35,445 bases of DNA from Bdellovibrionota bacterium (lineage in GTDB: Bacteria; Bdellovibrionota_C; UBA2361): contig JBILDU010000021.1 in NCBI GenBank assembly GCA_044352465.1, forward strand, positions 1 through 35,445, written 5' to 3'. Within the stretch, counting starts at the first letter, position 1, and each line of letters begins with the position of its first letter. The translations under genes and the position numbers were made by a program. This document shows, piece after piece, positions 3,723 to 27,165 of the stretch. The notes beneath the pieces were generated by a model. It saw only the letters and a list, made by a program, of their open reading frames with translations. It was not told the DNA's origin and did not search any database.

Positions 3723-4805
3723 ATGAAGACGTTCCCGTATTTTGAGATTGAGGGAGATAACGCCCACATCGGCGAGGGAGTGGGGAGCCTTTTGGCCGAG
3801 CGTATCGCCGAGTCTTATCGATTTTACGAGGATCTTTTCGCTGAGATATCCAAGATCGACCCCGGCTCTTCCTTGGCTCGCGCCCAGCTTGTTGCGCGCG
3901 TGCATGAGTATGCGGATGAAATCGCCCTGACGATTAGAAAACATTTCCCTACCTATGCGACCGAGATCGAGGCTATCGCAGCGGGAGCAGGGGTCGAACC
4001 GTGGAAAGTCTACGCGTTAAACGGCCGAACCGAGATCTATCGCCTGTTGGCTGAGAAGGCCAAACCGAAAGACCCCGGCGAATGCACCGCGGTTTATTTT
4101 CCGACGAGTGGATTACTTGGTCAAAATTGGGATTGGCATCCGCACCTTGAAGATTTAGCGGTGATTCTGAAACTTCGCCAACCTGATGGTCACACTATCT
4201 TGATGTTTACCGAGCCAGGGATTATCGGAAAGATGGGGTTGAACTCGGCCGGTCTCGGGGTCTGTCTCAATATTCTTTTCGGACGAAGTTCGACTGCGGG
4301 GGTGCCGATCCACATATTGCTGCGAGCGGTGCTCGACGCTCGGTCGGTGAGTGAAGCCGCTGCCCTCATCGCCGGGCTGCCCCTTGGAACCTCGAGCAAT
4401 ATCCTTTTGGGCGATGCGGACGGGAATGGGGTCAATTTGGAGATCCAAGGCAGCGCCCTCCACCGTTACGACGTAACCTCCGGTGACCTCGTGCATACGA
4501 ATCACTATATTGCGGACGAATCGAGTGCCACCGCAACGATACCCGGCTCCGTCAAGCGACTCGAGAGAGCGCGAGCCTTGTTCGGGGTCGAGTCGCGGCG
4601 GGGTGTTGAGGGGATGAAGGCGATGCTCGCTGACTGCGAGAGCACTGAGTTCCCGATCTGTCGAAGTTATTCAAAGGGGATCGATTTCTTGGTTGGAACC
4701 GTTGCTTCGGTGATTTTTGACCTCAAGGCTCGGGCGCTGCATGTGGCTCGAGGTCAGGGGGCCGTCGCTGGGGAATGGGTCAAGGTAAGCCTGGCTGGCT
4801 CGTAA
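3723..4805 (+). CDS. C45 family autoproteolytic Ntn acyltransferase/hydrolase
   Basis: GECTA cleavage/nucleophile site, QNWDW, GLNSAGLGVCLN, GVPIH, HTNH motifs. Confidence 0.88.
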   Translation: MKTFPYFEIEGDNAHIGEGVGSLLAERIAESYRFYEDLFAEISKIDPGSSLARAQLVARVHEYADEIALTIRKHFPTYATEIEAIAAGAGVEPWKVYALNGRTEIYRLLAEKAKPKDPGECTAVYFPTSGLLGQNWDWHPHLEDLAVILKLRQPDGHTILMFTEPGIIGKMGLNSAGLGVCLNILFGRSSTAGVPIHILLRAVLDARSVSEAAALIAGLPLGTSSNILLGDADGNGVNLEIQGSALHRYDVTSGDLVHTNHYIADESSATATIPGSVKRLERARALFGVESRRGVEGMKAMLADCESTEFPICRSYSKGIDFLVGTVASVIFDLKARALHVARGQGAVAGEWVKVSLAGS

Positions 4806-4880
4806 CAAAGAGGGCCGGCTGGATGGCTTTTTTTGTGGGTTTAATCGTGTGGTCCCGCGCTGCGGTGCGCAAATCTCTTA

Positions 4881-4909
4881 TAGCCAAATCAAGTCAGGCG
4901 CTCTACAAT
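4881..4909 (+). promoter_or_regulatory. putative sigma70 promoter of the porin-potABCD operon
   Basis: TAGCCA-17 bp-TACAAT about 40 bp upstream of the porin start. Confidence 0.5.
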
Positions 4910-4947
4910 TTTGAGGCGTAATGACTCTGTTTTCTAAGGGGAATGAC

Positions 4948-5706
4948 ATGAACAAATTTATTCGCCTCGCCGGTCTTCTGGCGTGCTCTTTAACCCTCGG
5001 CCACGCCGCTTTTGCCGCCGATGATAGCGCTGAAAAGCCGTGGTCTGTCGACATGAACGTCGCGTTTATGTCGGACTATATGTTCCGCGGCCAAAACCTC
5101 TATGACGGCTCGTCGATTCAACCTTACATCGGTGCAAGCTATGACACCGGCTACGGGGTGCTCGGTGCCTACAATTGGATGCACATCTCGGCTGATGGTT
5201 CGACCAACGTGCCGGAGTTCTTCGAGATGGACTGGGGGGTAAGTTACTCGATCGATTTTGAGCCGGTAAGTCTCTCGGTCGGGAATCTCTGGTACACCTA
5301 CCCGAATGATAGTGATGATATCAACGACACCTCCGAGGGGTTCGTCACCGTGGGGCTCGATGATAGCGGCTTTAATGACTTCTATACCTTGAATCCGACC
5401 CTTTCGGTCTATAAAGACTGGGATGAATTCGACTACTACTACTATGAGTTGAAGCTCAGCCACGATCACACCTGGTCGGTGCTTGGTGATGGCGTCACGA
5501 TCACCCCGTATGTATCGTTCGGCTTCGTCTCTGATGGGGAAAAAGCCTACGCTGATGATGGCTTGGTTACCGTCTCGGAGGGGGTGTCGGTTAACATACC
5601 GGTTGGTGAGCTCGTGCTTGCGCCGACCCTCAACTACACCCACGAGGTGGACGACCTTACGGTCAATCAGTTCTGGTTCGGCATGACCTTGGCCTACAGT
5701 CTTTAA
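4948..5706 (+). CDS. TorF-like (TIGR02001-type) putative outer-membrane porin
   Basis: Signal peptide (AAFAA), SDYMFRG motif, aromatic-rich alternating strands, ends LAYSL. Confidence 0.75.
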   Translation: MNKFIRLAGLLACSLTLGHAAFAADDSAEKPWSVDMNVAFMSDYMFRGQNLYDGSSIQPYIGASYDTGYGVLGAYNWMHISADGSTNVPEFFEMDWGVSYSIDFEPVSLSVGNLWYTYPNDSDDINDTSEGFVTVGLDDSGFNDFYTLNPTLSVYKDWDEFDYYYYELKLSHDHTWSVLGDGVTITPYVSFGFVSDGEKAYADDGLVTVSEGVSVNIPVGELVLAPTLNYTHEVDDLTVNQFWFGMTLAYSL

Positions 5707-5712
5707 TCCAAG

Positions 5713-6849
5713 GTGACTCGATCAATGTTGGGTGCCTCCCACTCAAAACCCGAAGTTCGACCGACCGATGTGCCGGCGGTTGAACTTCGGGGGGTCGAGA
5801 AGAAATTCGGCGATTCCTTCGCGGTCGCTGGAATCGATCTCTCGATCAAGCAAGGGGAATTCTTCTCCCTTCTCGGGCCCTCCGGTTGTGGTAAGACCAC
5901 GCTCCTAAGGATGGTCGCCGGCCTCGACTTTCCCACCGCCGGCGAGGTTTTGATCTGCGGCCAAGATGTTATCTCGGTCCCCGCGCATGAGCGACCTGTT
6001 AACACAGTCTTCCAGTCCTACGCCCTCTTCCCCCACATGACGGTGCGGGAGAATGTAGCGTTCGGGCTCAAGATGAAAAAAATTGCTCCGGCGGAGATCG
6101 CTCGGCGGGTAGACAAGATTATGGAGCTTGTGCAGATCGCGAAGTTCGCCGATCGCAAACCTCATCTACTATCGGGCGGGCAACGTCAGCGTGTCGCGCT
6201 CGCGCGCGCGGTGGTGAATGAGCCGCAGGTTCTCCTCCTTGATGAACCTCTCGGAGCGCTCGATCTGAAGCTCCGTAAGGAGCTGCAGATCGAACTGATT
6301 CGGTTGCAGCGCTCGCTCGGCATTACTTTCATTTGTGTCACCCATGATCAAGAGGAAGCGCTGACCATGAGTGACCGTATCGCGGTGATGAACGGCGGGT
6401 GTATCGAACAGATGGGCTCGGCCGAGGAGCTCTACGAAAATCCCCGCACGCGTTTTGTTGGAAGTTTTTTGGGTACCTGTAATTTTATCGAAGCTGTGGT
6501 GTCGTCACGAACTGCGCACGGCGCCGTAGTGCAGAGTCCGGTCGGTGCACTGAACGTCGAGTTCCGACGGCGCACCCCGGCATCTGAAAGAGAAAGGTTT
6601 ACTCTTGGTATCAGGCCGGAAAAAGTCACCCTGCACGATACTCCGGCTACTCACGGGGAAAATTGCATCGCGGTAACGGTGAAGGAGCTCTTGTACATCG
6701 GGTCCGAGACGCACTACCAACTCGATGCGGCGGGCGTAATTCTCGGCGCCGATAGCATGAATTCAAAGGTAGGCTCTCAAGGATTCGAGTTAGGGCAAAC
6801 GGCCTACGCCTATCTCCCCGCAGATGGTCTCGTGGTGCTCGATGATTAA
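5713..6849 (+). CDS. potA: spermidine/putrescine ABC transporter ATP-binding subunit
   Basis: GPSGCGKTT, VNTVFQSYALFPHM, LSGGQRQR, LLLDEPLGALD, C-terminal TOBE-like region; start may be ATG 5725. Confidence 0.93.
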   Translation: MTRSMLGASHSKPEVRPTDVPAVELRGVEKKFGDSFAVAGIDLSIKQGEFFSLLGPSGCGKTTLLRMVAGLDFPTAGEVLICGQDVISVPAHERPVNTVFQSYALFPHMTVRENVAFGLKMKKIAPAEIARRVDKIMELVQIAKFADRKPHLLSGGQRQRVALARAVVNEPQVLLLDEPLGALDLKLRKELQIELIRLQRSLGITFICVTHDQEEALTMSDRIAVMNGGCIEQMGSAEELYENPRTRFVGSFLGTCNFIEAVVSSRTAHGAVVQSPVGALNVEFRRRTPASERERFTLGIRPEKVTLHDTPATHGENCIAVTVKELLYIGSETHYQLDAAGVILGADSMNSKVGSQGFELGQTAYAYLPADGLVVLDD

Positions 6850-7774
6850 TCCTCGCTGGCGCACGGAGCGGGAGAATAAGTTCGGGGAACAGCTGACCCG
6901 CTACGACCAGATGTGGCGCTCGCTCCGGACCAGTGGACCAGCGATCGTTTGGACGACCCTCTTTCTTTTTATTCCGCTCATCGGGGTAGTCTTCATTAGT
7001 TTTATGAGTCGGGGGACGTACGGGGAGCTTCAGTTTCCACTGACCCTTGACAACTATGCGCGGTTCTTCGGCTTCGGATTCTTCGGGTTCGATCCGCTCT
7101 ATCCAAAGATCCTCCTCAGAAGTGTGGCGATCGCGGCAGGGGTAACGGCACTTTGCCTCGTGTGTGCCTTGCCGCTTGCGTTCTTCATCGCCGGTCTCCC
7201 CGATCGATTCAAGATCCTCGCGCTCACGCTTGTCATGGTTCCGTTTTGGACTAACCTGTTGATTCGCACCTACGCCTGGCAGATGCTTCTTTCGAGTGAG
7301 GGCTTGTTCTCCCAGATCGCCCAGTTTCTGGGGTTGCTCGCTGATGGGGACTCTCTCTACCCAAGTATCGGAGCTGTGCTTATCGGTACCTTGTGCGACT
7401 ACCTTCCGTATCTCGTCCTTCCCCTCTATGCGTCGGTTGAGAAGATCGACTGGTCGATCGTAGAGGCGGCGCGCGACCTGGGAGCAAACGGGGTGCGGGC
7501 TTTTCGGCATGCGGTACTTCCGCAGATCGTTCCAGGACTCGCGGCCGGAGTCGTGTTGGTGTTCGTTCCGGCAACAGGTCAATTCGTGGTGCCCGATCTT
7601 CTCGGAGGGGCGAAAACAGCCATGCTCGGGAATTCGATTGCCCAACAGTTTGGCGCGAGTCGTGATTGGCCATTCGGCTCGGCGATCGCGATGTCAGGGA
7701 TGATCGCCCTTTTCGTGGGCCTTTTATTCTATAACAAGGTAATGACCAAGCGGGGTGGGGAGGGGCTCCTATGA
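6842..7774 (+). CDS. potB: polyamine ABC transporter permease
   Basis: PFWTNLLIRTYAW, EAARDLGA EAA loop, RDWPFGSA; overlaps the potA stop. Confidence 0.92.
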   Translation: MINPRWRTERENKFGEQLTRYDQMWRSLRTSGPAIVWTTLFLFIPLIGVVFISFMSRGTYGELQFPLTLDNYARFFGFGFFGFDPLYPKILLRSVAIAAGVTALCLVCALPLAFFIAGLPDRFKILALTLVMVPFWTNLLIRTYAWQMLLSSEGLFSQIAQFLGLLADGDSLYPSIGAVLIGTLCDYLPYLVLPLYASVEKIDWSIVEAARDLGANGVRAFRHAVLPQIVPGLAAGVVLVFVPATGQFVVPDLLGGAKTAMLGNSIAQQFGASRDWPFGSAIAMSGMIALFVGLLFYNKVMTKRGGEGLL

Positions 7775-8565
7775 AACGGAACTCCCCCGCGCTTTCTCTC
7801 GTCGCCCTCATCCTCTACACCTTCATGTATCTCCCGATCATGGTGGTGGCGATATTTTCGTTCAACGATTCAAAACACGGCGTGGCATGGAAAGGGTTTA
7901 CGACCAAATGGTACGGCGTTCTCCTTGAAAACGAGCAGGCTCTGAGCGCGACCCTCAATTCACTCATCCTCGCCGGGGTGAGTGCCGCGATCTCAACGGT
8001 GCTCGGCACCTTGCTTGGCTATGGGCTCAGCCGCTATTGGTTCCCCGCGAAACGAGCTGTTTCGACCCTCATGTACATTCCAGTAATCATTCCAGATATC
8101 CTCATGGCGGTGGCCCTCTTGATGTTCTACGGCGTTCTCCGCGACCTGCTGGGAATCTTTGAACTCGGTATGGGCACGATGATATTTGCCCACGTTACCT
8201 TTCAGATTGCGTTCGTGGCGGTGGTCGTAAAATCACGTATGGTGGGGCTCGATCCGGCCCTGGAGGAGGCGGCGCGAGATCTGGGAGCTAATCGCTGGAA
8301 CGTTTTTTGGAAAATAACTTTTCCACTGATGATGCCCGGAGTCGTCTCGGGAGCGTTGCTTGCCTTCACCTTGAGCCTCGACGATTTTGTGGTGAGCTTT
8401 TTCACCGCGGGCCCTGGGTCGACCACCCTGCCGATTTTGATTTACTCATCGGTGAAAAGAGGTATAACTCCGGATATTAATGCGCTTTCCACCCTCATGG
8501 TGGTAGCGTCAACGTTGTTGGTCATCGCGACCACGTTACTTCAACCAAGGAGAAAAGCGACGTGA
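7771..8565 (+). CDS. potC: polyamine ABC transporter permease
   Basis: FSFN..WKGFTTKWY, EEAARDLGA, FTLSLDDFVVSFF, TLPILIYS; ATGA overlap with potB. Confidence 0.92.
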   Translation: MKRNSPALSLVALILYTFMYLPIMVVAIFSFNDSKHGVAWKGFTTKWYGVLLENEQALSATLNSLILAGVSAAISTVLGTLLGYGLSRYWFPAKRAVSTLMYIPVIIPDILMAVALLMFYGVLRDLLGIFELGMGTMIFAHVTFQIAFVAVVVKSRMVGLDPALEEAARDLGANRWNVFWKITFPLMMPGVVSGALLAFTLSLDDFVVSFFTAGPGSTTLPILIYSSVKRGITPDINALSTLMVVASTLLVIATTLLQPRRKAT

Positions 8566-9614
8566 GAAATCTGCGCTCTGTGCTCGGAAAGGTCATCATT
8601 TTGGGAATCCTCGCGGTAATGCCCTGTGTGGCGGCAGCGGCCCCCGCGCATAAACTCAACATCTACATCTGGAGCGAGTACATCGATCCTGAGATCGTGA
8701 AGAGCTTCGAGCAAAAGTTCGATTGCAAAGTGACCATCGACCTCTATGAGGACAATGAGAGCATGATGGCCAAGCTCGCGGCCGGCGGAGCGTCGACCTA
8801 TGACATTATCGTTCCCTCAGATTATGCGGTTCCGATCGTGGCGAAGCGGGGGCTCGCCCAGAAGCTCGATCACGCCAAGATTCCGAATTTGAAAAATATC
8901 GATCCTAAGTTTTTGAACACCCCCTTCGACCCAGGTAACCAATACTCGGCGCCGTATCAGTGGGGAACGGTAGGCGTCTACCTCCGCAAAAAGCCGGGGC
9001 AGGCTATCGATGAGTCTTGGGGGCTTATCTTCGACCCGAAAAAACAGCCCGGGAAGTTTGTCCTCATCGATTCGATGCGTGAGATGATTTCGGCAGCGCT
9101 GAAGTATCGGGGGCTTGGAGTTAACGAGACCGATCCGGCGAAGCTCAAAGATGTACTCGGTCTCCTTACCGAGGCAAAGGGCCGTTCTCTCGGATTCGAT
9201 GGTGGAGTTGGGGGGAAGAATAAGGTCCTTTCCAAGGTCGCCGACATGGCGGTCGTGTACAACGGCGATGCGGTGCGTGGCATGGTGGAAGATCCTGAGA
9301 CCTATTACTTTGTTCCGAAAGAAGGTGGGGAGATTTGGCTCGATAGTATGATGATACCGGCCAAAGCTCCGAATAAGGCGATGGCGGAGGCGTTCATCAA
9401 TTACATCCTCGATGCTGAGGTGGGAGCGCAGCTCTCAAACTTCAATCAATACGCCACTCCAAACAAGGCATCGCTCGATAGGATTAAGCCGGAGGATCGG
9501 GCAAATACGGCGATATATCCCTCCCCAGAGGTCATGGCAAAGCTTGAGTATCTCCAAGATCTCGGTGATAAGACGAAGCTCTACGACGAGATCTGGACCC
9601 GATTAAAGTCGTAA
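8562..9614 (+). CDS. potD: polyamine ABC transporter substrate-binding protein
   Basis: Signal peptide; WSEYID, DIIVPSDY, PYQWGTVG, YNGDA, PKEGGEIWLD motifs; GTGA overlap with potC. Confidence 0.92.
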   Translation: MRNLRSVLGKVIILGILAVMPCVAAAAPAHKLNIYIWSEYIDPEIVKSFEQKFDCKVTIDLYEDNESMMAKLAAGGASTYDIIVPSDYAVPIVAKRGLAQKLDHAKIPNLKNIDPKFLNTPFDPGNQYSAPYQWGTVGVYLRKKPGQAIDESWGLIFDPKKQPGKFVLIDSMREMISAALKYRGLGVNETDPAKLKDVLGLLTEAKGRSLGFDGGVGGKNKVLSKVADMAVVYNGDAVRGMVEDPETYYFVPKEGGEIWLDSMMIPAKAPNKAMAEAFINYILDAEVGAQLSNFNQYATPNKASLDRIKPEDRANTAIYPSPEVMAKLEYLQDLGDKTKLYDEIWTRLKS

Positions 9615-9637
9615 GGGCTCGCTGCCTTTAACCCTTG

Positions 9638-9666
9638 AACCCCGCCCTCAGCGGGGTTTTTTATTT
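9638..9666 (+). terminator. rho-independent terminator of the pot operon
   Basis: AACCCCGC-cctca-GCGGGGTT followed by TTTTATTT. Confidence 0.85.
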
Positions 9667-9774
9667 CGCTCAGGTGGTGTCTCGACTCGGGGTAGACGCT
9701 GAGCGATTGCAGTCGCCGGATGAGTCCGGATGAGATCCGCCCCCCAACCGTAATCAAATCACCTGTGGTGGTCT

Positions 9775-9952
9775 GTGGAGGGCCCGACTCTGTCGGGCCG
9801 TGGTTGGATCACCTGTGACGCTTGGTGGTCAGACAGAGTCCGACCCTCCACTCGATCTGAAACATCGGTGGTGATTGGCGGCCGGATCGAATCCGGCGCT
9901 CCACATTCGCGTGGTCTGGGTGGAGGGCCCGACTCTGTCGGGCCGTGGTTGG
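9775..9952. repeat. REP/BIME-like cluster of four GTGGAG-palindrome units
   Basis: Identical 33-mers at 9775-9807 and 9920-9952; inverted variants ending at 9851 and 9904; each unit is GTGGAG plus a short hairpin. Confidence 0.8.
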
Positions 9953-9985
9953 GAACGCCACCGTAATGCTCCGGGTGGGGTTTAT

Positions 9986-11227
9986 CTAAACCCCTAGGAT
10001 CTCGCGTGCGACCCGCACGCCGCTATCGTAAGCGCCGTGAGCGGTCGACGTCGGTGCGGTGCCCTCACCGGCCCAATAGAGGGGCGGGGTGGGGCGGCTG
10101 AGGACCGCGCGACCGGGGAAGCCCCCGGGGAGTGACACGCTGTACCCGCCGAAGGCGAAGGGGTCGTCACGCCACATCACGAACTTCGTAGCCGACGGAG
10201 TCGCCGTCTTATCCCCGATCTCAGCGCGGAACGTCTCAAGGGCGTATGCGACCGCCTTTTCCTCTCCCATGTCGTAGAGTTTCTCCGCCCAACGCCCGGA
10301 AAAGAATGCCGACCAGACTGTGTGTTTAAGGTGGGGACGTCCCATCGTGGGGGACCACCACATCGGCGGGCAGCCGGCGCTGTAGATCGCGCCGATTTCT
10401 GGATTGAAAACCGGTCTATCGAAACGGAGGATGATTTTGCTCACCGCCGACATAGCTATCTTTTCGAGTGCGGCAGCTTTCTCCGCGGGGAGTGCCGGTG
10501 AGAATTTGACGACCCCTGCTTTTAACACCCCCACGGGCAGGGTAATGACCGCAGCATCTGCCGCAAAGCTCTCACCGCTCTTCGAGCGAATCCGCACACC
10601 GGGCGAGCTCCATTCGATCGTATCGATGATGGTGTTCAGCCGAATGTCGAGCCCCCGTGCGAGATGGCTCATCAGGGTATCGTATCCACCGAGCAGTCGA
10701 TAATCGTTCGCGGCGTAGGCTTCGAGGTCGTGCATCGCCTGATAGGCGTCGATGACATCGGGGTCGCCACCGACAGCGTTCGCAAACATGCGTCGCACAT
10801 AGTGGATCTGGTCCGCGTTCCACCCCCCGCGGGTGAGGAAGGCGGTGAAGGTCTCCCCATCTGGCTGGGGTTTAATGTCGGGGAGTTGCCAACTTCGCAC
10901 CTGATCGAGCTCCGCGTCTTGAGCGCGGGCCGCGGTCATGGTTAAGAATCTTCCGTCTTTGAGCCTGACCATCGAGTCATCGGTCTTCTTCCATGGCACC
11001 CAGGCGAGGCCCAGGGACCGAATGAGGGGTTGGGTCGAGATCTCATCTCCATGCACGAACTCACCTCCGAATTCGATCGGGTGGTCGGCGAAGTCTCGAT
11101 TGGTCCAAAGCCGTCCACCGATGCGATCTCGCGCTTCGAGTACCCGAGTCTCAATCCCGTTCTCTTTGAGTGTACGCGCCGCCGCTAGTCCAGCTGCTCC
11201 TGCACCAACGACGAGCACTGATCTCAT
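9986..11227 (-). CDS. flavin-containing amine oxidase (MAO/PAO family)
   Basis: GAGAAGLAAA Rossmann motif, EARDRIGGR, EFGGEFVHG, conserved Lys (SKIILRF), W..DPF..GGYS, AGEGT..HGAYDSG. Confidence 0.9.
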   Translation of the reverse strand: MRSVLVVGAGAAGLAAARTLKENGIETRVLEARDRIGGRLWTNRDFADHPIEFGGEFVHGDEISTQPLIRSLGLAWVPWKKTDDSMVRLKDGRFLTMTAARAQDAELDQVRSWQLPDIKPQPDGETFTAFLTRGGWNADQIHYVRRMFANAVGGDPDVIDAYQAMHDLEAYAANDYRLLGGYDTLMSHLARGLDIRLNTIIDTIEWSSPGVRIRSKSGESFAADAAVITLPVGVLKAGVVKFSPALPAEKAAALEKIAMSAVSKIILRFDRPVFNPEIGAIYSAGCPPMWWSPTMGRPHLKHTVWSAFFSGRWAEKLYDMGEEKAVAYALETFRAEIGDKTATPSATKFVMWRDDPFAFGGYSVSLPGGFPGRAVLSRPTPPLYWAGEGTAPTSTAHGAYDSGVRVAREILGV

Positions 11228-11880
11228 GCGAACTCCTCGATATTTTTCTCAGTTAGTAAAACGAGCCGTACACACGCGTTGCCGCAGGTGGGATCGTCAA
11301 GGTATTCTTTCGCCAGCCCCTGGGGCTCAAATCCAAACCGCATCTGCATCGATACCGTCGGATCGAAGATCTCGCGGGCTACCACCTTTGTGTAGTACTC
11401 ATCGAGACTCAAGCGGTCGCGAACCGCACTGTAGCCATTGATCATGCCCATTGAGTACTGCCCCTTGAGGCCGAGGCGGCGACACGTTTCATGCCGTGCA
11501 TGGTAAAGAGCCCGAGCTATTCCGCGTCCCCGATAGTCAGGATGGACGCCAAGATCGACCCCGTAGAGCCATTCACCGTGCGGGTCGTGCGAGGTGCAAA
11601 ATCCTCCCTCGATGACCTCGTCGAATCCGTGGTCGGCCGTCAAAAAGGCCTCGGACAGCCGGATGGAGGTGGTCATGCCCACAACTTTATCGCCGTCGAG
11701 GGCCACGAACTGCCCCTCCGGGAAGAGCTCAATGTGTTTCAGGTAATGGGCTCGCTTGAGTCGCTGTGAGTCCGCGAGCATCGGAAAGACCGTTTTTTGG
11801 AGCTCCTCCAATTGCTCGGCGTGCGCCGCACTGGTCGGTACGACGGCGATTCCGCTGGTACGAGTTTTTTGATAGCTCAT
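11224..11880 (-). CDS. GNAT family N-acyltransferase, paralogous to the N-terminal domain of the upstream fusion
   Basis: FPEGQFVA, LYGVDLGVHPDYRGRGIARALY acyl-CoA motif; ATGA overlaps on both sides (start 11880). Confidence 0.88.
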   Translation of the reverse strand: MSYQKTRTSGIAVVPTSAAHAEQLEELQKTVFPMLADSQRLKRAHYLKHIELFPEGQFVALDGDKVVGMTTSIRLSEAFLTADHGFDEVIEGGFCTSHDPHGEWLYGVDLGVHPDYRGRGIARALYHARHETCRRLGLKGQYSMGMINGYSAVRDRLSLDEYYTKVVAREIFDPTVSMQMRFGFEPQGLAKEYLDDPTCGNACVRLVLLTEKNIEEFA

Positions 11881-13427
11881 TTTCCGCGGGTCCTCAGCCA
11901 CGCCACCGAGTACAGGTCGGTCCGTCGGTCGAGCAAGTTACGTGAACTGCCTTGCAAATGGAGCTCCTTCAAGAGCGAGAGGTCAACGTCCGCAACAAGG
12001 GTCATCTCAGTGTTCGGCGTTGCTTCCGAAATTGTCGAGTCGATCGGAAACGCAAAGTCCGAAGGGGAGAAGACCGCCGACTGGGCGAATTGGGTGTCCA
12101 TGTTTGAAACCTTGGGGAGGTTGCCAACACACCCGGCGATCGCCACGTAACACTCGTTCTCAATCGCGCGCGCCTGAGCACAGCACTTGATCCGTTGATA
12201 ATCGTTCGGAGTCGATGAGGAGAACGGAACGAACAAGAGCTGCACCCCCTGTTCCGCGTACAGTCGTCCGAGCTCAGGATACTCAACGTCGTCGGAGAGG
12301 AGAATTCCGACCTTGCCCGAGTCGGTATCGAACGCCTTGAGCTCATCGCCGCCGACCATGCCCCAGTGACTCACTTCGCCTGGTGAGATGTGGATCTTTT
12401 TATACGAGTCCCATGACCCATCACGACGGCACAGATAGCAGATACTATAGAGCAGCCGATCCTCAACGTAGGGCATGCTCCCCGTGATGATATTCGTATT
12501 GTAAGCTACTGCGAATTCGCAAAATTTCTTTAAGAGCGGCTCGGTATAGAATGCGAGCTGTCGAATCGCCTCCGACTCAGGGAGATTGTTAAACTGCATC
12601 ATCAGTGGAGCGTTGATGAATTCGGGAAAAAGGCAAAAACTCGCCTGGAGACTACTCACCGCGTCAACAAAGAATTCGATCTGCTCGAGGAGCTCTTCGA
12701 GGCGGTCGGCCCGACGCATCTGCCACTGCACGAGCCCGATCCGGGCATACGATTTTTGCTTCGTAAAGAGGTCGCGTTTCTCCTCGTAGAAGACGTTGTT
12801 CCACTCGAGCAGAGTAGCGTACTGCATCGACTCTTTGTCATCGACGAGATAATTACGTAATATTTTTCTGACGTGAAACTGATTCGATAGTTGAAAAGTG
12901 AGGATCGGGTCGTAGATCTCTTTAAGCCGCACCTTCTCGATATATTCGCGGGGACTCATCTGCGCGGCGACCTTTTGGTACCCCGGTATTCGACCGCCGG
13001 CGATGATTGAGCGAAGATTGAGATTTTCACACAACTCTTTGCGCGCATCGTAGAGTCGCCGTCCGAGACGGAGTCCCCGATGTTTCGGATTGACGAAGAC
13101 CTCGATGCCGTAGAGCACGTCACCCTTGGGGTTGTGGGTATTAAGCTGCTGATTGTTCGTTACCTTAGCGTAGGTATGGTCATCTCCGTAGTCGGAGTAC
13201 TTGACGATGATGGCGAGCGCCGCTCCGGCGACCTCACCGTTCACCTCGACGCAGATCTGTCCCTCGGGGAAATCTTGAATGAGGCGTTGAATCTGTTCCC
13301 GGCTCCAAAGCCCCATCCCAGAACCTCGATAGCTCTCGGCCATCGCCGTGGAAAGTTTGTCGAAGTCCGAGAGGGCTAATCCCCGTAGTTTGACCTTCGT
13401 TCGCTTCGCACTCGCTGCCGTTGCCAT
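11877..13427 (-). CDS. bifunctional GNAT / carbon-nitrogen hydrolase fusion (catalytic Cys replaced by Ser)
   Basis: N-terminal GNAT (FPEGQIC, RGLRLGRRLY); C-terminal nitrilase fold with LFPE, YKKIH, ARAIENECY, but GILLSDDVEYPE where the family has GILICYDxEFPE. Confidence 0.88.
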   Translation of the reverse strand: MATAASAKRTKVKLRGLALSDFDKLSTAMAESYRGSGMGLWSREQIQRLIQDFPEGQICVEVNGEVAGAALAIIVKYSDYGDDHTYAKVTNNQQLNTHNPKGDVLYGIEVFVNPKHRGLRLGRRLYDARKELCENLNLRSIIAGGRIPGYQKVAAQMSPREYIEKVRLKEIYDPILTFQLSNQFHVRKILRNYLVDDKESMQYATLLEWNNVFYEEKRDLFTKQKSYARIGLVQWQMRRADRLEELLEQIEFFVDAVSSLQASFCLFPEFINAPLMMQFNNLPESEAIRQLAFYTEPLLKKFCEFAVAYNTNIITGSMPYVEDRLLYSICYLCRRDGSWDSYKKIHISPGEVSHWGMVGGDELKAFDTDSGKVGILLSDDVEYPELGRLYAEQGVQLLFVPFSSSTPNDYQRIKCCAQARAIENECYVAIAGCVGNLPKVSNMDTQFAQSAVFSPSDFAFPIDSTISEATPNTEMTLVADVDLSLLKELHLQGSSRNLLDRRTDLYSVAWLRTRGK

Positions 13428-13444
13428 ACCGCCAACCCTTACGT

Positions 13445-14737
13445 TTATCGCGTGCCTGAAAGTGCGCCGAGAGAGCTTTCGAGCATCGCCAGCGCCTCCT
13501 CGATAACCGAGTCCTCAGCGGTGATGGGAACGAGAATGCGGATCGTATTGGCGTAGACACCGCACGAAAGGAGTATAAGCCCTTTGGTGAGTGCGATGCC
13601 GGTGAGGCTCTTCGCGAGCTCGGGAGCCGGTTCGTGGGTCGATTGATCTTTGACGAGCTCGAATGCGACCATGCCACCCAGACCACGGACCTCTCCGATA
13701 AAAGGAAAGCGTCCGGAATCGGCTAACGCCGAGAGGCGACTCTTCAGTTTCTCGCCGAGAGCGGTGCTCCGTTCGAGGAGTTTTTCCCGGTCCATGAGTT
13801 TTAAGATGGCGAGTCCCGCTGCACAGGCGACCGGGTTACCCGCGTACGTCCCTCCCAAGCCCCCCGGCTCCGGCGCATCCATGATTTCAGCTCGTCCAAT
13901 AACCGCCGAGAGGGGGAGTCCACCGGCGATACTCTTCGCGGTGACGATAATGTCGGGTTTGATACCGCTATGCTCGATAGCGAAGAGTTTGCCGGTGCGT
14001 CCAAATCCACACTGCACCTCATCGGCAACCATCACGATCCCATGTTGATCGCAGATCTCCCGGATCCGTCGGATAAATTCGGGGGGAGCTTGATAGAAGC
14101 CACCCTCGCCCTGCACCGTCTCAAACATGATCGCGGCGACCTCGGATGGATCGATCGAGGCTTTAAAGATCCGTTCGATTCCATGAATAGCGTCGTCAAC
14201 GGAGACTCCGTGGTATTCCATCGGAAAGGGGGCGTGAAAGATGCTTCCTGCCATCGGACCGAAAGTCTTTTTATAGGGGAGCACTTTCCCGGTGAGCGAC
14301 ATCGCCAGGAGACTCCGTCCGTGAAAACCTCCGATGAAGGAGATCACCCCGGGCCGTCGTGTCGCCGCGCGACAGATCTTTACCGCGTTTTCGCCCGCCT
14401 CGGCACCGGTCGAGAAGAAGATCGTCTTGGCGGGTCCTTTAATCGGAGCGCGGCGATTCATCTCTTCAGCGAGTGCGATGTACGGCTCGTATGCGGTGAC
14501 CTGGAACGCTGAGTGAATGACCTTACTCGCTTGATCGGTGATCGCAGCCACCACATCGGGATGACAGTGCCCGAAGTTTTGAACACCGATGCCTCCAGCG
14601 AAATCGATGTAGCGCTTGCCCTCGACGTCCCAGATCTCGGCGTTTTTGGCCCGGGCAGCAAAAACCGGGTGGGCGGTTGATACACCGCGGGGCACCGCGT
14701 TTTTCCGACGTTCCAGGAGCTCGTTATTACTGGTCAT
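13445..14737 (-). CDS. gabT: 4-aminobutyrate aminotransferase (class III PLP)
   Basis: DFAGGIG, GAEAGENAVK, VQGEGGF, ADEVQCGFGRTG, TAKSIAGG, GGLGGTYAGNP. Confidence 0.93.
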   Translation of the reverse strand: MTSNNELLERRKNAVPRGVSTAHPVFAARAKNAEIWDVEGKRYIDFAGGIGVQNFGHCHPDVVAAITDQASKVIHSAFQVTAYEPYIALAEEMNRRAPIKGPAKTIFFSTGAEAGENAVKICRAATRRPGVISFIGGFHGRSLLAMSLTGKVLPYKKTFGPMAGSIFHAPFPMEYHGVSVDDAIHGIERIFKASIDPSEVAAIMFETVQGEGGFYQAPPEFIRRIREICDQHGIVMVADEVQCGFGRTGKLFAIEHSGIKPDIIVTAKSIAGGLPLSAVIGRAEIMDAPEPGGLGGTYAGNPVACAAGLAILKLMDREKLLERSTALGEKLKSRLSALADSGRFPFIGEVRGLGGMVAFELVKDQSTHEPAPELAKSLTGIALTKGLILLSCGVYANTIRILVPITAEDSVIEEALAMLESSLGALSGTR

Positions 14738-16197
14738 GAGGCGATTCCTCCTAAACAGATATATTTGGTGTGAGTATAATCATCGAGCCCGTACTTCGAA
14801 CCCTCCCGACCAAAGCCCGATTGTTTGACACCACCGAAGGGGATGTTCTCGGCGGAGATCATGACGTCGTTCACGCCGACCATCCCCACTTCGAGCGCCT
14901 CGGCAGCGCGCCAGATTTGTCCCAGGTCGCGGCTATAGAAATATCCGGCGAGGCCGAACTCGCTTCGATTGGCGAGCTCGAGGACTTCGGTTTCATCCGA
15001 AAATCGGAACAGTGAAGCGAGGGGGCCGAAGGTTTCTTCGCGGGCGACGAGCATTGCGGGAGTGGCTCCGTCAATGACCGTCGGCTCATAGAAAAAGCGC
15101 CCCGCAGCGGGTTGTTTGCCGCCGCACGCGATCGTCGCTCCGCGCTGAGCCGCATCGCTGACGTGCGCCTCAACCTTATCAACGGCGGCCCGGTTAATCA
15201 GAGGTCCCACATCGGTTCCGTCGGCGAGCCCTGAGCCGATTTTGAGCGCCGTTACTGCTTTGACGAGCTTATCTCGAAACTCCGCGTAAACCTTCGTATG
15301 GACGAAGAAACGATTGACGCAGATGCACGTCTGGCCGTTGTTTCGAAACTTCGCAAACATCGCACCTTTCACCGCCGCATCGATATCAGCGCTTTCGAAA
15401 ACGATAAACGGTGCGTTGCCACCGAGTTCCATAGAGAGCTTCTTAATCGTCGCGGCGCACTGCTTCATCAGGAGCGCGCCGGTGCGAGTTGAGCCGGTGA
15501 AGGTCACCTTTCGCACGGTCGGGTTGGTCGTGAGTTCGAGTCCGATCGCTTGGGGGTCGCCGTTTAAAACGCTCCAAATTCCCGGCGGCAGTCCTGCCTG
15601 CTCGCCGAGATAGGCGAGCGCGAGCGCGGAGAAGGGTGTCAGTTCGGCAGGCTTCGACACGACAGCGCATCCCGCGGCGAGCGCCGGCGCGATCTTTCGG
15701 GCCAACATCGCCGAGGGGAAATTCCACGGCGTGATGGTGGCAACAACACCAACCGGCTCTTTGAGGACGAGGAGTCGGGTCTCCTTCCGGTTCCCTGGAA
15801 TAATGTCACCGTATGCTCGTTTGGCCTCTTCGGCGAACCACTCGATGTACGCACCTGAGTAGGTTACCTCAGCCCGCGCCTCGGGAAGGGGTTTTCCTTG
15901 TTCAAGGGTGATAATCTTGGCGAGGTCTTCGCGATGCTGAATGACGAGGTTGAACCAAGTGCGCAAGATATTGCTGCGCTCCTTGGCTGTGAGCGAACGC
16001 CAGCCGGCTTGAGCAACCTGCGCGGCCGCAATAGCGCTTTTCGCATCCTCAACTGAACAAGCCGGGACTCCGCCAAGGCGGGTTCCGTCGAACGGATTGA
16101 GCACGTCGATGGTAGAGCGGCCGCCGCCGGAGACCCATTTCCCAGCGAGGTAGGCCTCCTCACGAAGGAGCTTCGGTTCACGGAGGTCAAAATTCAT
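14734..16197 (-). CDS. gabD: NAD(P)-dependent succinate-semialdehyde dehydrogenase
   Basis: TPWNFPSAM, FTGST, MELGGNAPFIVF, KFRNNGQTCIC, EETFGP, PFGGVKQSG; ATGA overlap with gabT. Confidence 0.93.
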   Translation of the reverse strand: MNFDLREPKLLREEAYLAGKWVSGGGRSTIDVLNPFDGTRLGGVPACSVEDAKSAIAAAQVAQAGWRSLTAKERSNILRTWFNLVIQHREDLAKIITLEQGKPLPEARAEVTYSGAYIEWFAEEAKRAYGDIIPGNRKETRLLVLKEPVGVVATITPWNFPSAMLARKIAPALAAGCAVVSKPAELTPFSALALAYLGEQAGLPPGIWSVLNGDPQAIGLELTTNPTVRKVTFTGSTRTGALLMKQCAATIKKLSMELGGNAPFIVFESADIDAAVKGAMFAKFRNNGQTCICVNRFFVHTKVYAEFRDKLVKAVTALKIGSGLADGTDVGPLINRAAVDKVEAHVSDAAQRGATIACGGKQPAAGRFFYEPTVIDGATPAMLVAREETFGPLASLFRFSDETEVLELANRSEFGLAGYFYSRDLGQIWRAAEALEVGMVGVNDVMISAENIPFGGVKQSGFGREGSKYGLDDYTHTKYICLGGIAS

Positions 16198-16494: not shown

Positions 16495-16570
16495 GGGCCG
16501 GTAGCTCAGCTGGTAGAGCAGAAGACTCTTAATCTTCGGGTCGAAGGTTCGATCCCTTCCCGGCTCACCA
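16495..16570 (+). tRNA. tRNA-Lys (anticodon CUU)
   Basis: 76 nt cloverleaf: GGGCCGG/CCGGCTC acceptor stem, AGCTCAGCTGGTAGAGC D-arm, GAAGA-CT-CTT-AA-TCTTC anticodon arm, GGTTCGATCC T-arm, encoded CCA. Confidence 0.97.
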
Positions 16571-26549: not shown

Positions 26550-26580
26550 AGTGTACCTATTGAGCCAAACCAGGTATACT
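26550..26580 (+). promoter_or_regulatory. putative abiE promoter/operator
   Basis: IR AGTGTACCT (26550-58) / AGGTATACT (26572-80), one mismatch; the right arm contains TATACT. Confidence 0.6.
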
Positions 26581-26586
26581 AAAGGA

Positions 26587-27165
26587 ATGAGAGCAACTGC
26601 GGCACAGAAACTAATGGAGTCGATGACGCCCGGACGGGTGTATCGACGGCATGAGCTTCGCTCTCTCTCCAGTAACCTCACGAGAGATCTCGATAAGCTC
26701 GTTGAGAGTAGGGAGGTAGTTCGCGCAGCGCCTGGCCTCTATTACAGACCAAAGATGACGAAAGTCGGGCCACGTCCTGCAAGCCCAGAGGAGCTCGTTC
26801 GGGCGTTTCTAAATGACGACGAGTTCCTTCTTACTTCTCTCGATGATTACAACCCTCTTGGGCTGGGACTCACCCAGCTTTATAACCAAGCTATCGTTTA
26901 TAACAGAAAGCGGCACGGCCACTTCGAGCTCGACGGGCGAAGGTTCTCGTTTAGAAGACCAAGAGACTTTCCGCGCGCCCTAAGCAAAGAGTTCCTTTAC
27001 GTCGATGTCCTGAATAATAAAGATGAGCTTCTTGAAGATACGAGTGAGCTTGAGGCGCGAGTGGCTGAGGCAGCAAGAAACCTGAGCGAAAAAACGCTCC
27101 TAGCGGCTGCAAGCCGCTACGGAAAAGTCTCCACGAGGAAGTTCTTTGAGGAGCTTATTCGGTAG
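26587..27165 (+). CDS. AbiEi-like (DUF6088-type) type IV TA antitoxin / transcriptional regulator
   Basis: N-terminal winged-HTH (GRVYRRHEL...RDLDKLV...GLYYRP), N.LGLGLTQ motif; 1-bp overlap with the AbiEii gene. Confidence 0.78.
   Translation: MRATAAQKLMESMTPGRVYRRHELRSLSSNLTRDLDKLVESREVVRAAPGLYYRPKMTKVGPRPASPEELVRAFLNDDEFLLTSLDDYNPLGLGLTQLYNQAIVYNRKRHGHFELDGRRFSFRRPRDFPRALSKEFLYVDVLNNKDELLEDTSELEARVAEAARNLSEKTLLAAASRYGKVSTRKFFEELIR

What the first reader, a model, noticed from the sequence alone, without database searches (positions are those of the whole stretch)
3723..16197. Candidate acylation-protected polyamine-to-GABA catabolic system (import plus complete pathway)
Seen: two convergent units, C45 hydrolase/TorF-like porin/potABCD and gabD-gabT-[GNAT+CN-hydrolase]-GNAT-FAD amine oxidase. 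The second is coupled by three ATGA overlaps and one 17-nt gap. Known: the classic bacterial putrescine routes use gamma-glutamylation (PuuA/B/C/D) or transamination (PatA/PatD); neither PuuA nor PatA is recognisable here. Mammals use acetylation, then MAO, ALDH and deacetylation to make GABA. Inference: the GNATs N-acylate putrescine/spermidine, the flavin oxidase oxidises the free amine, an ALDH oxidises the aldehyde, a deacylase releases GABA, and GabT/GabD give succinate. That would be an acyl-protected analogue of the Puu pathway. Only one ALDH is present, so GabD would need to act twice or another ALDH must lie elsewhere.
Basis: partly seen in the sequence, partly recalled or inferred. 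Interest (0 to 1): 0.85.

Follow-up and report, generated by a model that had tools for sequence, protein, structure and literature searches.

The report
Acyl-protected polyamine breakdown gene cluster
This bacterium carries a polyamine importer next to an operon that probably breaks polyamines down to succinate by first capping one amino group with an acyl group, a route known from mammals and yeast for which I found no gene-level description in bacteria.

Summary
All eleven genes, the three ATGA overlaps and the 17-nt gap are there.

- **Conserved core.** The small GNAT ("GNAT2") belongs to a distinct, widespread family. Across unrelated lineages it sits beside, or is fused to, an enzyme that turns an amine into an aldehyde.
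  - Its partner is this flavin amine oxidase in 6 of 6 informative metagenome loci.
  - Its partner is a GabT-like transaminase in 7 of 10 Bacteroidota genomes.
  - It is fused to a GabT-like transaminase in P0355, P0362 and P0371 (P0355 is labelled Terracidiphilus).
  - These clusters also carry a GabD-like aldehyde dehydrogenase, an amidohydrolase of varying fold, a transporter (PotABCD in one case) and sometimes agmatine-to-putrescine genes.
- **Classic routes absent.** The genome has no PuuA- or PatA-type gene.
- **Corrections.**
  - The GNAT+CN-hydrolase fusion is not part of the conserved core.
  - Its catalytic cysteine is serine here, yet the domain is strongly conserved, so the C45 hydrolase is the better deacylase candidate.
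  - GNAT2 folds like PKS-loading GNAT decarboxylases but lacks their His/Thr dyad.
  - The acyl donor and the exact amine remain open.

The parts
3723..4805 (+). C45-family Ntn acyltransferase/hydrolase (360 aa). Best deacylase candidate, or an acyl-CoA:amine acyltransferase.
   Evidence: NF040521 scores 237.9 bits against a cut-off of 85. Best PDB match is isopenicillin N acyltransferase 2x1c/2x1d at E 4e-28, with Cys121 aligned to its CT nucleophile motif and NWD conserved. C45-porin-potD order is conserved in G123 (80% id) and G066 (54% id). A GNAT2-like gene followed by C45 forms a pair in G103.
4921..5706 (+). TorF/Gcw_chp-type putative outer-membrane porin (261 aa), 6 nt upstream of potA.
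   Evidence: PF09694 scores 31.3 bits against a cut-off of 24; TIGR02001 is below its cut-off. The N-terminus looks like a signal peptide. A homolog (40-44% id) lies divergent from the fusion gene in G049/L017.
5713..6849 (+). potA, polyamine ABC transporter ATPase.
   Evidence: TIGR01187 scores 384.7 bits against a cut-off of 355.6.
6824..7774 (+). potB-like permease.
   Evidence: NF007044 scores 232.4 bits, below its cut-off of 348. It is the only tblastn hit to itself in the genome at E 1e-15 or better.
7771..8565 (+). potC-like permease.
   Evidence: NF007047 scores 265 bits, below its cut-off of 326.
8562..9614 (+). PotD-like periplasmic polyamine-binding protein.
   Evidence: It aligns with E. 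coli PotD (8y5h_E) at E 1.7e-55 and with PotF at about 1e-38 to 1e-40. The alignment keeps the WxEY, PSxY, DxxRE, WxD and YxTPN stretches. That these are the ligand-contact residues is recalled, not taken from a call.
9637..9659 (+). Intrinsic-terminator-like hairpin ending the pot operon.
   Evidence: 9-bp stem with 6 GC pairs, followed by a T run.
9986..11227 (-). FAD amine oxidase (413 aa) of the LSD/PAO/PuO superfamily. Proposed to oxidise the free or secondary amine of the N-acylated polyamine.
   Evidence: PF01593 at E 3e-62. PDB by sequence: LSD2 1.4e-36, PuO 2.8e-25, maize PAO 2.5e-21, PAOX 6e-18. The model has pLDDT 90.9; Foldseek gives TMq 0.80-0.84 to LSD2, ZmPAO, PAOX and PuO. A GNAT2 homolog lies beside it in 6 of 6 informative distant loci.
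11224..11880 (-). GNAT2 (218 aa), a standalone GNAT of a distinct family. Proposed N-acyltransferase that caps one amino group.
   Evidence: PF00583. The family has 1092 hits and 985 representatives. The tree separates it from the fusion-type GNAT domains with 100/98 support. The model has pLDDT 95.6; nearest folds are SxtA-DC, GphF and CurA GNAT_L at TMq 0.77-0.78. The decarboxylase dyad is replaced by Gly145 and Gln179.
11877..13427 (-). GNAT + CN-hydrolase fusion (516 aa), with Ser378 in place of the nitrilase-type catalytic Cys.
   Evidence: PF00583 + PF00795. The CN domain is closest to Nit2 (2.6e-14). Ser378 aligns to the Nit2 ICYD cysteine. Motif counts over 120 homologs are. The CN domain is more conserved than the GNAT domain.
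13445..14737 (-). gabT, 4-aminobutyrate transaminase.
   Evidence: TIGR00700 scores 555.3 bits against a cut-off of 506.65.
14734..16197 (-). gabD, succinate-semialdehyde dehydrogenase. The only ALDH in the locus.
   Evidence: TIGR01780 scores 662.4 bits against a cut-off of 646.35. It is the best match in this genome (43% id) to the ALDH that follows GNAT2 in G049.

Best explanation
The two convergent units form one system for taking up and degrading a polyamine or diamine (putrescine and/or spermidine) through N-acyl-protected intermediates.

Proposed steps:
1. The porin and PotABCD bring the amine in.
2. A GNAT (GNAT2, and possibly the GNAT domain of the fusion) acylates one amino group.
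3. The flavin amine oxidase oxidises the remaining primary or secondary amine to an N-acyl-aminoaldehyde.
4. An aldehyde dehydrogenase makes the N-acyl-omega-amino acid. This is the GabD-like enzyme, or the generalist ALDH elsewhere in the genome.
5. An amidase removes the acyl group to give GABA. This is most likely the C45 hydrolase, less likely the Ser-type CN-hydrolase domain.
6. GabT and GabD convert GABA to succinate.

What is shown: the gene identities, the operon structure, and the cross-phylum conservation of the GNAT2 + amine-to-aldehyde enzyme + ALDH + amidase + GabT + transporter association.

What is inferred: every catalytic step, the order of steps, the acyl donor (acetyl-CoA, or a dicarboxylyl-CoA such as succinyl- or malonyl-CoA) and the substrate.
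For: **Operon structure.** The operon is translationally coupled.

**Oxidase-GNAT2 link.**
- A metagenome scan with an oxidase alignment returned 80 loci. Nine have an oxidase at 41% identity or more.
- Six of those nine (L054, L055, L057, L059, L060, L061) carry a GNAT2 homolog directly beside the oxidase. The other three are contigs of 1.2-2.1 kb.
- None of the 71 loci with an oxidase at 25-37% identity has one.
- A GabT-like gene follows the oxidase in L059, L060 and L061. L060 has a GabD-like gene, and L059 has potB/potC.

**Tree.** These GNATs and GNAT2 form one clade (100/98), apart from the fusion-type GNAT domains.

**Fusions.**
- GNAT2-like domains are fused to a GabT-like class-III transaminase in P0355 (57% and 46% identity to the window's two proteins) and in P0362 and P0371.
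- Relatives are fused to a CN hydrolase in both domain orders, and to Amidohydro_3.

**Bacteroidota sample.** 401 genomes were searched.
- 10 genomes have a standalone GNAT2-family gene.
- A GabT-like gene is adjacent in 7 of those 10, and a GabD-like gene lies within about 3 kb in 8 of 10.
- An Amidohydro_3 gene is in the cluster in 5 of 10.
- PotABCD and a CoA-transferase occur in L190. Agmatine deiminase occurs in L187, and an NCPAH-like CN hydrolase in L187 and L190. A PF01593 oxidase occurs in L184.

**Relatives of the same order.**
- G049 has the order fusion, ORF, GNAT2, ALDH, with the porin beside the fusion.
- G103 has GNAT2-like followed by C45.
- C45-porin-pot is conserved in G123 and G066.

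**Importer.** The PotD-like protein keeps PotD's conserved stretches. It is the only potBCD set in the genome by tblastn.

**Classic routes.** There is no PuuA or PatA type in the genome.

**Literature.** P. aeruginosa converts N-acetylputrescine to 4-acetamidobutanoate in culture (PMC10542159; passages read).
Against: - No activity was tested, and no GNAT substrate can be read from sequence.
- GNAT2's nearest structures are decarboxylases, not N-acetyltransferases. SSAT and SpeG were not among the Foldseek rows shown.
- The oxidase is about equally like LSD2, PAO, PAOX and PuO. Neither a preference for acylated substrates nor the cleavage site can be inferred.
- The fusion's nitrilase nucleophile is Ser.
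- The locus has one ALDH, and it scores as a genuine SSADH.
- In G049 the oxidase ortholog (53% id) lies away from GNAT2, beside a radical-SAM gene and a pseudouridine synthase.
- In 25 of 27 genome loci the fusion has none of these neighbours directly beside it. L018 has only a distant ALDH and a partial transaminase in its flanks.
- L191 and L192 (Bacteroidota) carry GNAT2-like genes in unrelated contexts.
- Related genomes are not independent samples.
Confidence: 0.58

Rival explanations
1. Free-amine route. The oxidase acts directly on imported putrescine (PuO-like) or spermidine (terminal PAO-like) to give 4-aminobutanal. An ALDH makes GABA, and GabT/GabD finish the pathway. The GNATs are accessory: they detoxify or allow export of by-products such as 1,3-diaminopropane, or buffer excess polyamine as SpeG does.
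For: Putrescine oxidase and maize PAO are among the closest structures. The putrescine oxidase + ALDH + GabT/GabD route is established in actinobacteria (recalled). The route needs no deacylase, which fits the Ser-for-Cys CN domain. In G049 the oxidase stands without a GNAT neighbour.
Against: It does not explain three things: why GNAT2-family genes are fused to a GabT-like transaminase; why relatives are fused to two unrelated amidohydrolase folds; and why an amidohydrolase recurs in the clusters. The oxidase-GNAT2 adjacency in 6 of 6 distant loci and the ATGA coupling argue for consecutive steps. This route also needs a second ALDH.
Confidence: 0.2
2. Unrelated neighbours. PotABCD serves polyamine homeostasis and gabTD serves GABA use. 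The fusion and GNAT2 serve something else, for example an osmotic-stress function, as the fusion's neighbours in Bacteroidota would suggest. The convergent arrangement has no shared function.
For: In the 14 distant loci examined, the fusion's neighbours include MscS channels in 6 and Usp proteins in 5, plus AraC regulators, a K+ channel and a Na+/H+ exchanger. Convergent operons are not co-transcribed. The pot operon and the gabD operon lie on separate contigs in G123 and G066.
Against: Components of both units recur together elsewhere:
- potB/potC beside GNAT-oxidase-GabT in L059;
- potABCD beside GNAT2-gabD-gabT in L190;
- the porin beside the fusion in G049;
- C45 beside a GNAT2-like gene in G103.
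Confidence: 0.12
3. Dav-like amide route. The flavoenzyme oxidatively decarboxylates an amino acid (ornithine or lysine) to an omega-amino amide. The CN-hydrolase domain hydrolyses the amide to GABA or 5-aminovalerate. GabT/GabD (as DavT/DavD) finish the pathway. No second ALDH is needed.
For: The gene families match those of DavB, DavA, DavT and DavD of Pseudomonas putida (recalled). This would solve the one-ALDH problem.
Against: - The oxidase's best sequence and structure matches are LSD2, PAO, PAOX and PuO. The only amino-acid-oxidase entry seen is a putative L-amino-acid oxidase (7eme): 1.2e-19, rank 46.
- The CN hydrolase is not conserved with the oxidase in other loci, whereas the GNAT is.
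- The CN nucleophile is Ser.
- The transporter is PotD-like.
Confidence: 0.04

Closest known systems
Mammalian and yeast acetylation route for putrescine: N-acetylputrescine, then 4-acetamidobutanal, then 4-acetamidobutanoate, then GABA. Also the SSAT/PAOX polyamine back-conversion. (Pathway knowledge recalled; PMC10542159 and PMC7576179 read in passages.)
   Same: The logic is the same: acyltransferase, flavin amine oxidase, ALDH, deacylase, then GABA catabolism. The oxidase shares the PAOX/PAO/MAO fold.
   Different: The GNAT is not SSAT-like; its nearest fold is GNAT_L. The oxidase is only 22-25% identical to PAOX and LSD2. The genes are clustered with an ABC importer and gabTD. The deacylase candidates are C45 or CN-hydrolase proteins. 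The acyl donor is unknown.
Arginine succinyltransferase (AST) pathway and the gamma-glutamyl Puu pathway of E. coli (recalled).
   Same: An amino group is masked by an acyl group. A class-III transaminase or an oxidase then makes the aldehyde, an ALDH oxidises it, and an amidase unmasks the amine. The GNAT2-transaminase fusions mirror the consecutive AstA/AstC steps.
   Different: No PuuA-type ligase is present. No AstA or AstE family match was seen among the 15 window proteins scanned. The substrate is a polyamine or diamine rather than arginine.
GNAT-like decarboxylases of PKS loading modules (CurA GNAT_L, GphF, SxtA DC) and malonyl-CoA decarboxylase.
   Same: Closest fold at TMq 0.77-0.78. 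They share the PxGQ/N, HxxxG and DP motifs in the profile alignment.
   Different: The catalytic Thr355/His389 dyad of CurA (PMC3701320; passages read) aligns to invariant Gly145 and Gln179 in the GNAT2 family.
Nit1/Nit2-type nitrilase-superfamily amidases (omega-amidase, deaminated-glutathione amidase) and N-carbamoylputrescine amidase.
   Same: These are the best matches of the CN domain. Glu269 and Lys344 are kept.
   Different: The domain is fused to a GNAT. The catalytic Cys is Ser378 in this clade.
   Same: It has the same GNAT family (shared words) and was given the same reading of an acetyl-protected polyamine route.
   Different: There a transaminase fused to the GNAT and an SpdH-like flavoprotein take the place of this oxidase. 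The amidohydrolase and the transporter are of other families. I did not examine that operon's DNA.

Membership tests
PotABCD spermidine/putrescine ABC importer | PotA-type ATPase over the family cut-off | tested here: met
   TIGR01187 scores 384.7 bits against a cut-off of 355.6.
PotABCD spermidine/putrescine ABC importer | PotD/PotF-type binding protein with the polyamine-contact residues | tested here: inconclusive
   The PotD equivalog NF007048 scores 203 bits against a cut-off of 582. The alignment to E. coli PotD has E 1.7e-55 and keeps WxEY, PSxY, DxxRE, WxD and YxTPN. The role of these residues is recalled.
GabT/GabD GABA shunt enzymes | Scores over the curated cut-offs of the GABA transaminase and SSADH models | tested here: met
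   TIGR00700 scores 555.3 against 506.65. TIGR01780 scores 662.4 against 646.35.
Puu (gamma-glutamylation) pathway | PuuA, a glutamine-synthetase-family ligase additional to GlnA | tested here: not met
   There is a single PF00120 match in the genome, which is 94.9% complete.
PatA/PatD transaminase pathway | Putrescine aminotransferase over the cut-off | tested here: not met
   TIGR03372: best 243 bits against a cut-off of 658.65, with 3 matches.
Acetylation route (N-acyltransferase, amine oxidase, ALDH, deacylase) | N-acyltransferase acting on a polyamine | not testable with these tools
   A GNAT fold with the RGRGIA CoA-binding motif is present. The substrate is unknown.
Acetylation route (N-acyltransferase, amine oxidase, ALDH, deacylase) | Flavin amine oxidase | tested here: met
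   PF01593 at E 3e-62. Fold TMq 0.80-0.84 to PAO, PAOX, PuO and LSD2.
Acetylation route (N-acyltransferase, amine oxidase, ALDH, deacylase) | ALDH for the N-acyl-aminoaldehyde, distinct from SSADH | tested here: inconclusive
   GabD is the only ALDH in the locus. A generalist ALDH lies on C51. The ALDH beside GNAT2 in G049 is SSADH-like but below the cut-off (485 against 646).
Acetylation route (N-acyltransferase, amine oxidase, ALDH, deacylase) | Amidase able to remove the acyl group | tested here: inconclusive
   C45 keeps its nucleophile Cys. The CN domain has Ser378. There is no Amidohydro_3 ortholog in the genome.
GNAT_L / malonyl-CoA-decarboxylase-type decarboxylases | His + Thr/Ser catalytic dyad (CurA His389/Thr355; PMC3701320 passages) | tested here: not met
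   The profile alignment puts Gln179 and Gly145 at these positions. Both are invariant in 34 of 34 family members.
Nitrilase superfamily (active amidase) | Glu-Lys-Cys catalytic triad | tested here: not met
   Glu269 and Lys344 are present. Cys is replaced by Ser378, aligned to the Nit2 ICYD motif. That the Cys of this motif is the nucleophile is recalled.
C45 Ntn-hydrolase/acyltransferase | Family model over the cut-off, and an N-terminal nucleophile Cys at the processing site | tested here: met
   NF040521 scores 237.9 against 85. Cys121 aligns to the G-CT site of isopenicillin N acyltransferase, with one inserted Glu before it.
Dav (lysine monooxygenase/amidase) pathway | DavB-type amino-acid 2-monooxygenase and an active DavA-type amidase conserved together | tested here: not met
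   The oxidase is closest to LSD2, PAO and PuO. The CN hydrolase is absent beside oxidase orthologs elsewhere. Its nucleophile is Ser.

The most novel reading that the evidence does not exclude
A widespread, so far undescribed bacterial pathway degrades diamines and polyamines through N-acyl-protected intermediates.

- **Committed step.** A new GNAT subfamily with a GNAT_L-like fold, in which the decarboxylase His/Thr dyad is replaced by Gln/Gly.
- **Modular design.** The amine-to-aldehyde step is done by an LSD/PAO-like oxidase or by a GabT-like transaminase, sometimes fused to the GNAT. The deprotection step is done by Amidohydro_3, CN-hydrolase or C45 enzymes.
- **Acyl group.** It may be a dicarboxylyl group (succinyl or malonyl) rather than acetyl. 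The GNAT's nearest folds bind malonyl-type thioesters, and the CN domain's nearest relatives cleave dicarboxylate monoamides.
- **This lineage.** It has recruited a nitrilase-superfamily domain that works with Ser instead of Cys, or has become a non-catalytic partner.
Probability: 0.4. Interest if true: 0.8.

Novelty: new variant of a known kind. Interest (0 to 1): 0.68.

Why it matters
- **A third bacterial route.** Bacterial polyamine catabolism is usually explained by the gamma-glutamyl (Puu), transaminase (PatA/SpuC), putrescine oxidase or spermidine dehydrogenase routes. Many genomes, including this one, lack the first two. A gene-level acyl-protection route would fill annotation gaps in Bacteroidota, in Oligoflexia-like bacteria, in the Terracidiphilus-labelled record and in the metagenome lineages sampled here.
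- **Unassigned families.** It would give a function to a large unannotated GNAT family (985 representatives at E 1e-3 or better).
- **Acetylated polyamine metabolites.** It could explain bacterial production of N-acetylputrescine and 4-acetamidobutanoate.
- **Chemical rationale.** Acylation avoids reactive aminoaldehydes (this rationale is recalled).
- **Enzymology.** The Ser-for-Cys nitrilase-superfamily clade is under strong purifying selection and is an open question of its own.

Tried and rejected
- **Fusion as anchor for the neighbourhood.** In 25 of 27 genome loci none of these genes lies directly beside it; L018 has only a distant ALDH and a partial transaminase in its flanks. Its neighbours there suggest osmotic stress. 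I therefore re-centred on the oxidase and on GNAT2.
- **Dav-like amide route.** Considered and given low odds (see rival explanations).
- **GNAT2 as a decarboxylase.** Rejected, because the catalytic dyad is missing.
- **Structure comparison of the oxidase.** It did not separate PAO-, PAOX-, PuO- and LSD-type chemistry.
- **ESM Atlas search for GNAT2.** It returned only 'GNAT family' names.
- **Literature.** Nine full-text searches found no paper on any of three topics: a bacterial GNAT + amine oxidase polyamine cluster, the function of the GNAT+CN-hydrolase fusion, or a natural Ser variant of the nitrilase triad.
  - Subscription journals are not covered.
  - Pace & Brenner's classification of nitrilase branches, which I recall lists a RimI-type fusion branch, was not found in the library.
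  - PMC10606097 holds none of the acetylation terms I searched for.
- **dN/dS by domain.** dS was saturated, so only dN and amino-acid identity are usable.
- **Complex prediction.** Not used, because the report does not claim that any two of these proteins bind.

Full report
**1. Observation**

The window is a whole 35,445-bp contig (C116) of a 3.13-Mb, 170-contig genome that is 94.9% complete. Its closest public relatives are MAGs labelled Pseudomonadota bacterium and Oligoflexia bacterium.

- Over their curated cut-offs: C45 (NF040521, 237.9 vs 85), PotA (TIGR01187, 384.7 vs 355.6), GabT (TIGR00700, 555.3 vs 506.65) and GabD (TIGR01780, 662.4 vs 646.35).
- The porin match is weak (PF09694, 31.3 vs 24).
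- The PotB, PotC and PotD equivalog scores are below their cut-offs.

The ATGA overlaps (14734-14737, 11877-11880, 11224-11227) and the 17-nt gap were read in the sequence. A terminator-like hairpin (9637-9659) closes the pot operon. REP-like repeats fill the convergent spacer.

**2. The fusion is the wrong anchor**

The GNAT+CN-hydrolase fusion belongs to a very large family. 8000 candidates were scored, and most of the best 120 are 61-64% identical, with many from Bacteroidota.

Of 27 loci in species genomes, only the two close relatives (L001, L002) carry gabT, gabD, GNAT2 or the oxidase directly beside it. L018 has only a 35%-identical ALDH about 1.6 kb away and a partial transaminase at the edge of its flank. 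In the 14 distant loci examined, the neighbours include MscS channels (6 loci), Usp proteins (5 loci), AraC regulators, a K+ channel and a Na+/H+ exchanger. The fusion's ancestral role is therefore not tied to this pathway.

**3. The conserved core is GNAT2 plus an enzyme that turns an amine into an aldehyde**

*Within the phylum.* In the 124 genomes of the phylum, oxidase orthologs above 50% identity occur only in G123 (82%) and G049 (53%).

*Metagenome scan.* A scan with an oxidase alignment gave 80 loci.
- Nine hold an oxidase at 41% identity or more.
- Six of those nine have a GNAT2 homolog (34-40% identity) directly beside the oxidase. The other three are contigs too short to tell.
- None of the 71 loci with more distant oxidases has one.
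- In L059, L060 and L061 a GabT-like gene follows the oxidase. L060 adds a GabD-like gene, and L059 has potB/potC divergently.

*Tree.* A maximum-likelihood tree of 45 GNAT sequences gives two clades, each with 100/98 support. One holds the fusion-type GNAT domains, including split forms. The other holds the standalone GNAT2 family, which contains the oxidase-linked GNATs.

*Family size and fusions.* GNAT2 has 1092 word-indexed homologs, many 54-60% identical and labelled Armatimonadetes, Planctomycetota, Sumerlaeia or soil. It has 985 cluster representatives at E 1e-3 or better.
- P0355, P0362 and P0371 are GNAT2-like domains fused to a GabT-like class-III transaminase.
- Other relatives are fused to a CN hydrolase in either order, to Amidohydro_3, or to PEP carboxylase.

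**4. Independent confirmation in Bacteroidota**

In an even sample of 401 Bacteroidota genomes, 15 matched the GNAT2 profile at E 1e-45 or better. Five of the matches are fusion-type; ten genomes have a standalone gene.

Around these ten:
- a GabT-like gene is adjacent in 7;
- a GabD-like gene lies within about 3 kb in 8;
- an Amidohydro_3 gene is in the cluster in 5;
- transport genes vary (NhaC-like, APC, SusC/D, and PotABCD in L190);
- L187 carries agmatine deiminase, and L187 and L190 each carry an NCPAH-like CN hydrolase;
- L184 carries a PF01593 oxidase;
- L190 carries a family-III CoA-transferase;
- two loci (L191, L192) show unrelated contexts.

Several clusters have two GabT-like genes flanking GNAT2.

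**5. Same-order relatives tie in the other parts**

- G049 has the order fusion (74%), a 188-aa ORF, GNAT2 (54%), ALDH (43% to GabD), with the porin (40-44%) divergent from the fusion.
- G103 has a GNAT2-like gene (41%) followed by a C45 gene (34-39%).
- The C45-porin-potD order is kept in G123 and G066.
- Contig-length coincidences in the protein tables suggest that fusion, GNAT2 and oxidase share contigs in at least five further relatives. This evidence is indirect.

**6. What the proteins themselves say**

*Binding protein.* It aligns with E. coli PotD (E 1.7e-55) better than with PotF, and keeps the conserved stretches.

*Oxidase.* The model (pLDDT 90.9) matches LSD2, maize PAO, LSD1, PAOX and putrescine oxidase about equally (TMq 0.80-0.84, 20-25% identity). 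By sequence LSD2 is best. Its chemistry cannot be narrowed further.

*GNAT2.* The model (pLDDT 95.6) is closest to the GNAT-like decarboxylases SxtA-DC, GphF and CurA GNAT_L (TMq 0.77-0.78). Ard1, serotonin and agmatine N-acetyltransferases reach 0.63 or less. However, the CurA Thr355/His389 dyad (PMC3701320, passages) aligns to Gly145 and Gln179, both invariant in 34 of 34 family members. The fusion's GNAT domain shows the same Gly and Gln. It is a distinct GNAT subfamily and unlikely to be a decarboxylase.

*CN domain.* It is closest to Nit2, yeast Nit3, NitFhit and N-carbamoylputrescine amidase.
- It keeps Glu269 and Lys344, but Ser378 aligns with the Nit2 cysteine.
- Among the 120 best homologs the motif is CY in 102, SD in 11, SY in 2 and AD in 1; 4 could not be placed.
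- Of the twelve closest proteins (P0001-P0012, 69% identity or more), eleven have SD and one has AD.
- Within that clade the CN domain is more conserved than the GNAT domain (for example 82% vs 72% to P0009; dN 0.028 vs 0.052 to L001). It is therefore under selection, as a Ser-based enzyme or as a non-catalytic partner.

*C45.* It keeps the nucleophile Cys121.

*Amidohydro_3.* There is no ortholog in this genome.

**7. Genome context**

- There is one glutamine-synthetase-family gene, so no PuuA.
- No PatA-type transaminase is over the cut-off.
- There are seven ALDH-family matches. The four other than GabD that I classified are P5C-, P6C- and methylmalonate-semialdehyde-type enzymes and one generalist ALDH.
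- There are five PF01593 genes.
- Pot here is the only potBCD set by tblastn.

**8. Reading**

The recurring set is GNAT, then oxidase or transaminase, then ALDH, then an amidase of varying fold, then GabT, plus a transporter. Fusions join the GNAT to the transaminase or to an amidase. This is what an acyl-protection pathway predicts. It parallels the AST pathway and the mammalian and yeast acetyl-putrescine route.

The agmatine-to-putrescine genes and the Pot systems point to putrescine or spermidine as the substrate. I put the general scheme at 0.58.

Still open:
- which amine is the substrate;
- which acyl-CoA is the donor. The GNAT_L-like fold and the Nit-like amidase hint at a dicarboxylyl group, but this is inference;
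- whether GabD doubles as the acyl-aminoaldehyde dehydrogenase;
- which amidase deprotects. C45 is favoured here.

**9. Novelty**

Nine full-text searches found no bacterial gene cluster of this kind. PMC10542159 (passages) shows that P. aeruginosa makes 4-acetamidobutanoate from N-acetylputrescine, without naming genes for that step. PMC7576179 (passages) notes that bacterial PAO-like proteins lack biochemical data.

I verified the GNAT-transaminase fusion proteins myself but did not examine that operon.

The chemistry is known. The bacterial genetic basis and the enzyme families appear to be new.

Noticed in passing
window 11877-12770 (CN-hydrolase domain of the fusion; Ser378): A whole clade of this nitrilase-superfamily fusion has Ser, and once Ala, in place of the catalytic Cys, and Asp in place of the following Tyr. 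The clade is the twelve closest homologs, at 69% identity or more. The domain is nevertheless more conserved than the GNAT domain.
   Followed up: partly
proteins P0472, P0508, P0499: GNAT domains of this clade (about 37% identity to GNAT2) are fused to the N-terminus of PEP carboxylase. They might be an acyl-CoA-sensing or modifying module. This remains unexplained.
   Followed up: no
L032 = G000:C144:3411-7442: A methylmalonate-semialdehyde-type ALDH lies beside a GTP_CH_N + GTP-cyclohydrolase-II protein and a DUF1688 protein. The arrangement resembles the URC pyrimidine-degradation genes of yeasts (recalled).
   Followed up: no
L028 = G000:C51:306-5666: A bacteriorhodopsin-like gene lies beside a PF01593-family (carotenoid-desaturase-like) gene, a DeoC-like aldolase and a generalist ALDH that is cut by the contig end.
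   Followed up: no
window 9758-9952: Two identical 33-nt repeats (9775-9807 and 9920-9952), with an inverted partner at 9827-9851, lie between the convergent operons. They look like REP elements and may explain why relatives' assemblies break here.
   Followed up: partly
L029 = G000:C43 (locus coordinates 4105-7651): A paralogous PF01593 amine oxidase (415 aa) lies directly after an ADP-forming acyl-CoA synthetase-type gene (CoA_binding + Succ_CoA_lig + ATP-grasp_5). CoA-activating genes also sit near GNAT/oxidase clusters: an AMP-binding enzyme in L055, an acetyl-CoA hydrolase/transferase in L059 and a CoA-transferase III in L190.
   Followed up: no
window 26551-28112 and 22726-24855: An AbiEii-type nucleotidyltransferase toxin gene (27165-28112) follows a 204-aa ORF. 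SbcC- and SbcD-like genes lie upstream. A tRNA-Lys (16495-16570) separates the gabD operon from an acyl-CoA dehydrogenase gene.
   Followed up: no
L140 (G073) and L145 (G072): Split forms of the fusion: a standalone GNAT next to a standalone CN hydrolase, in two genomes of the same order.
   Followed up: no
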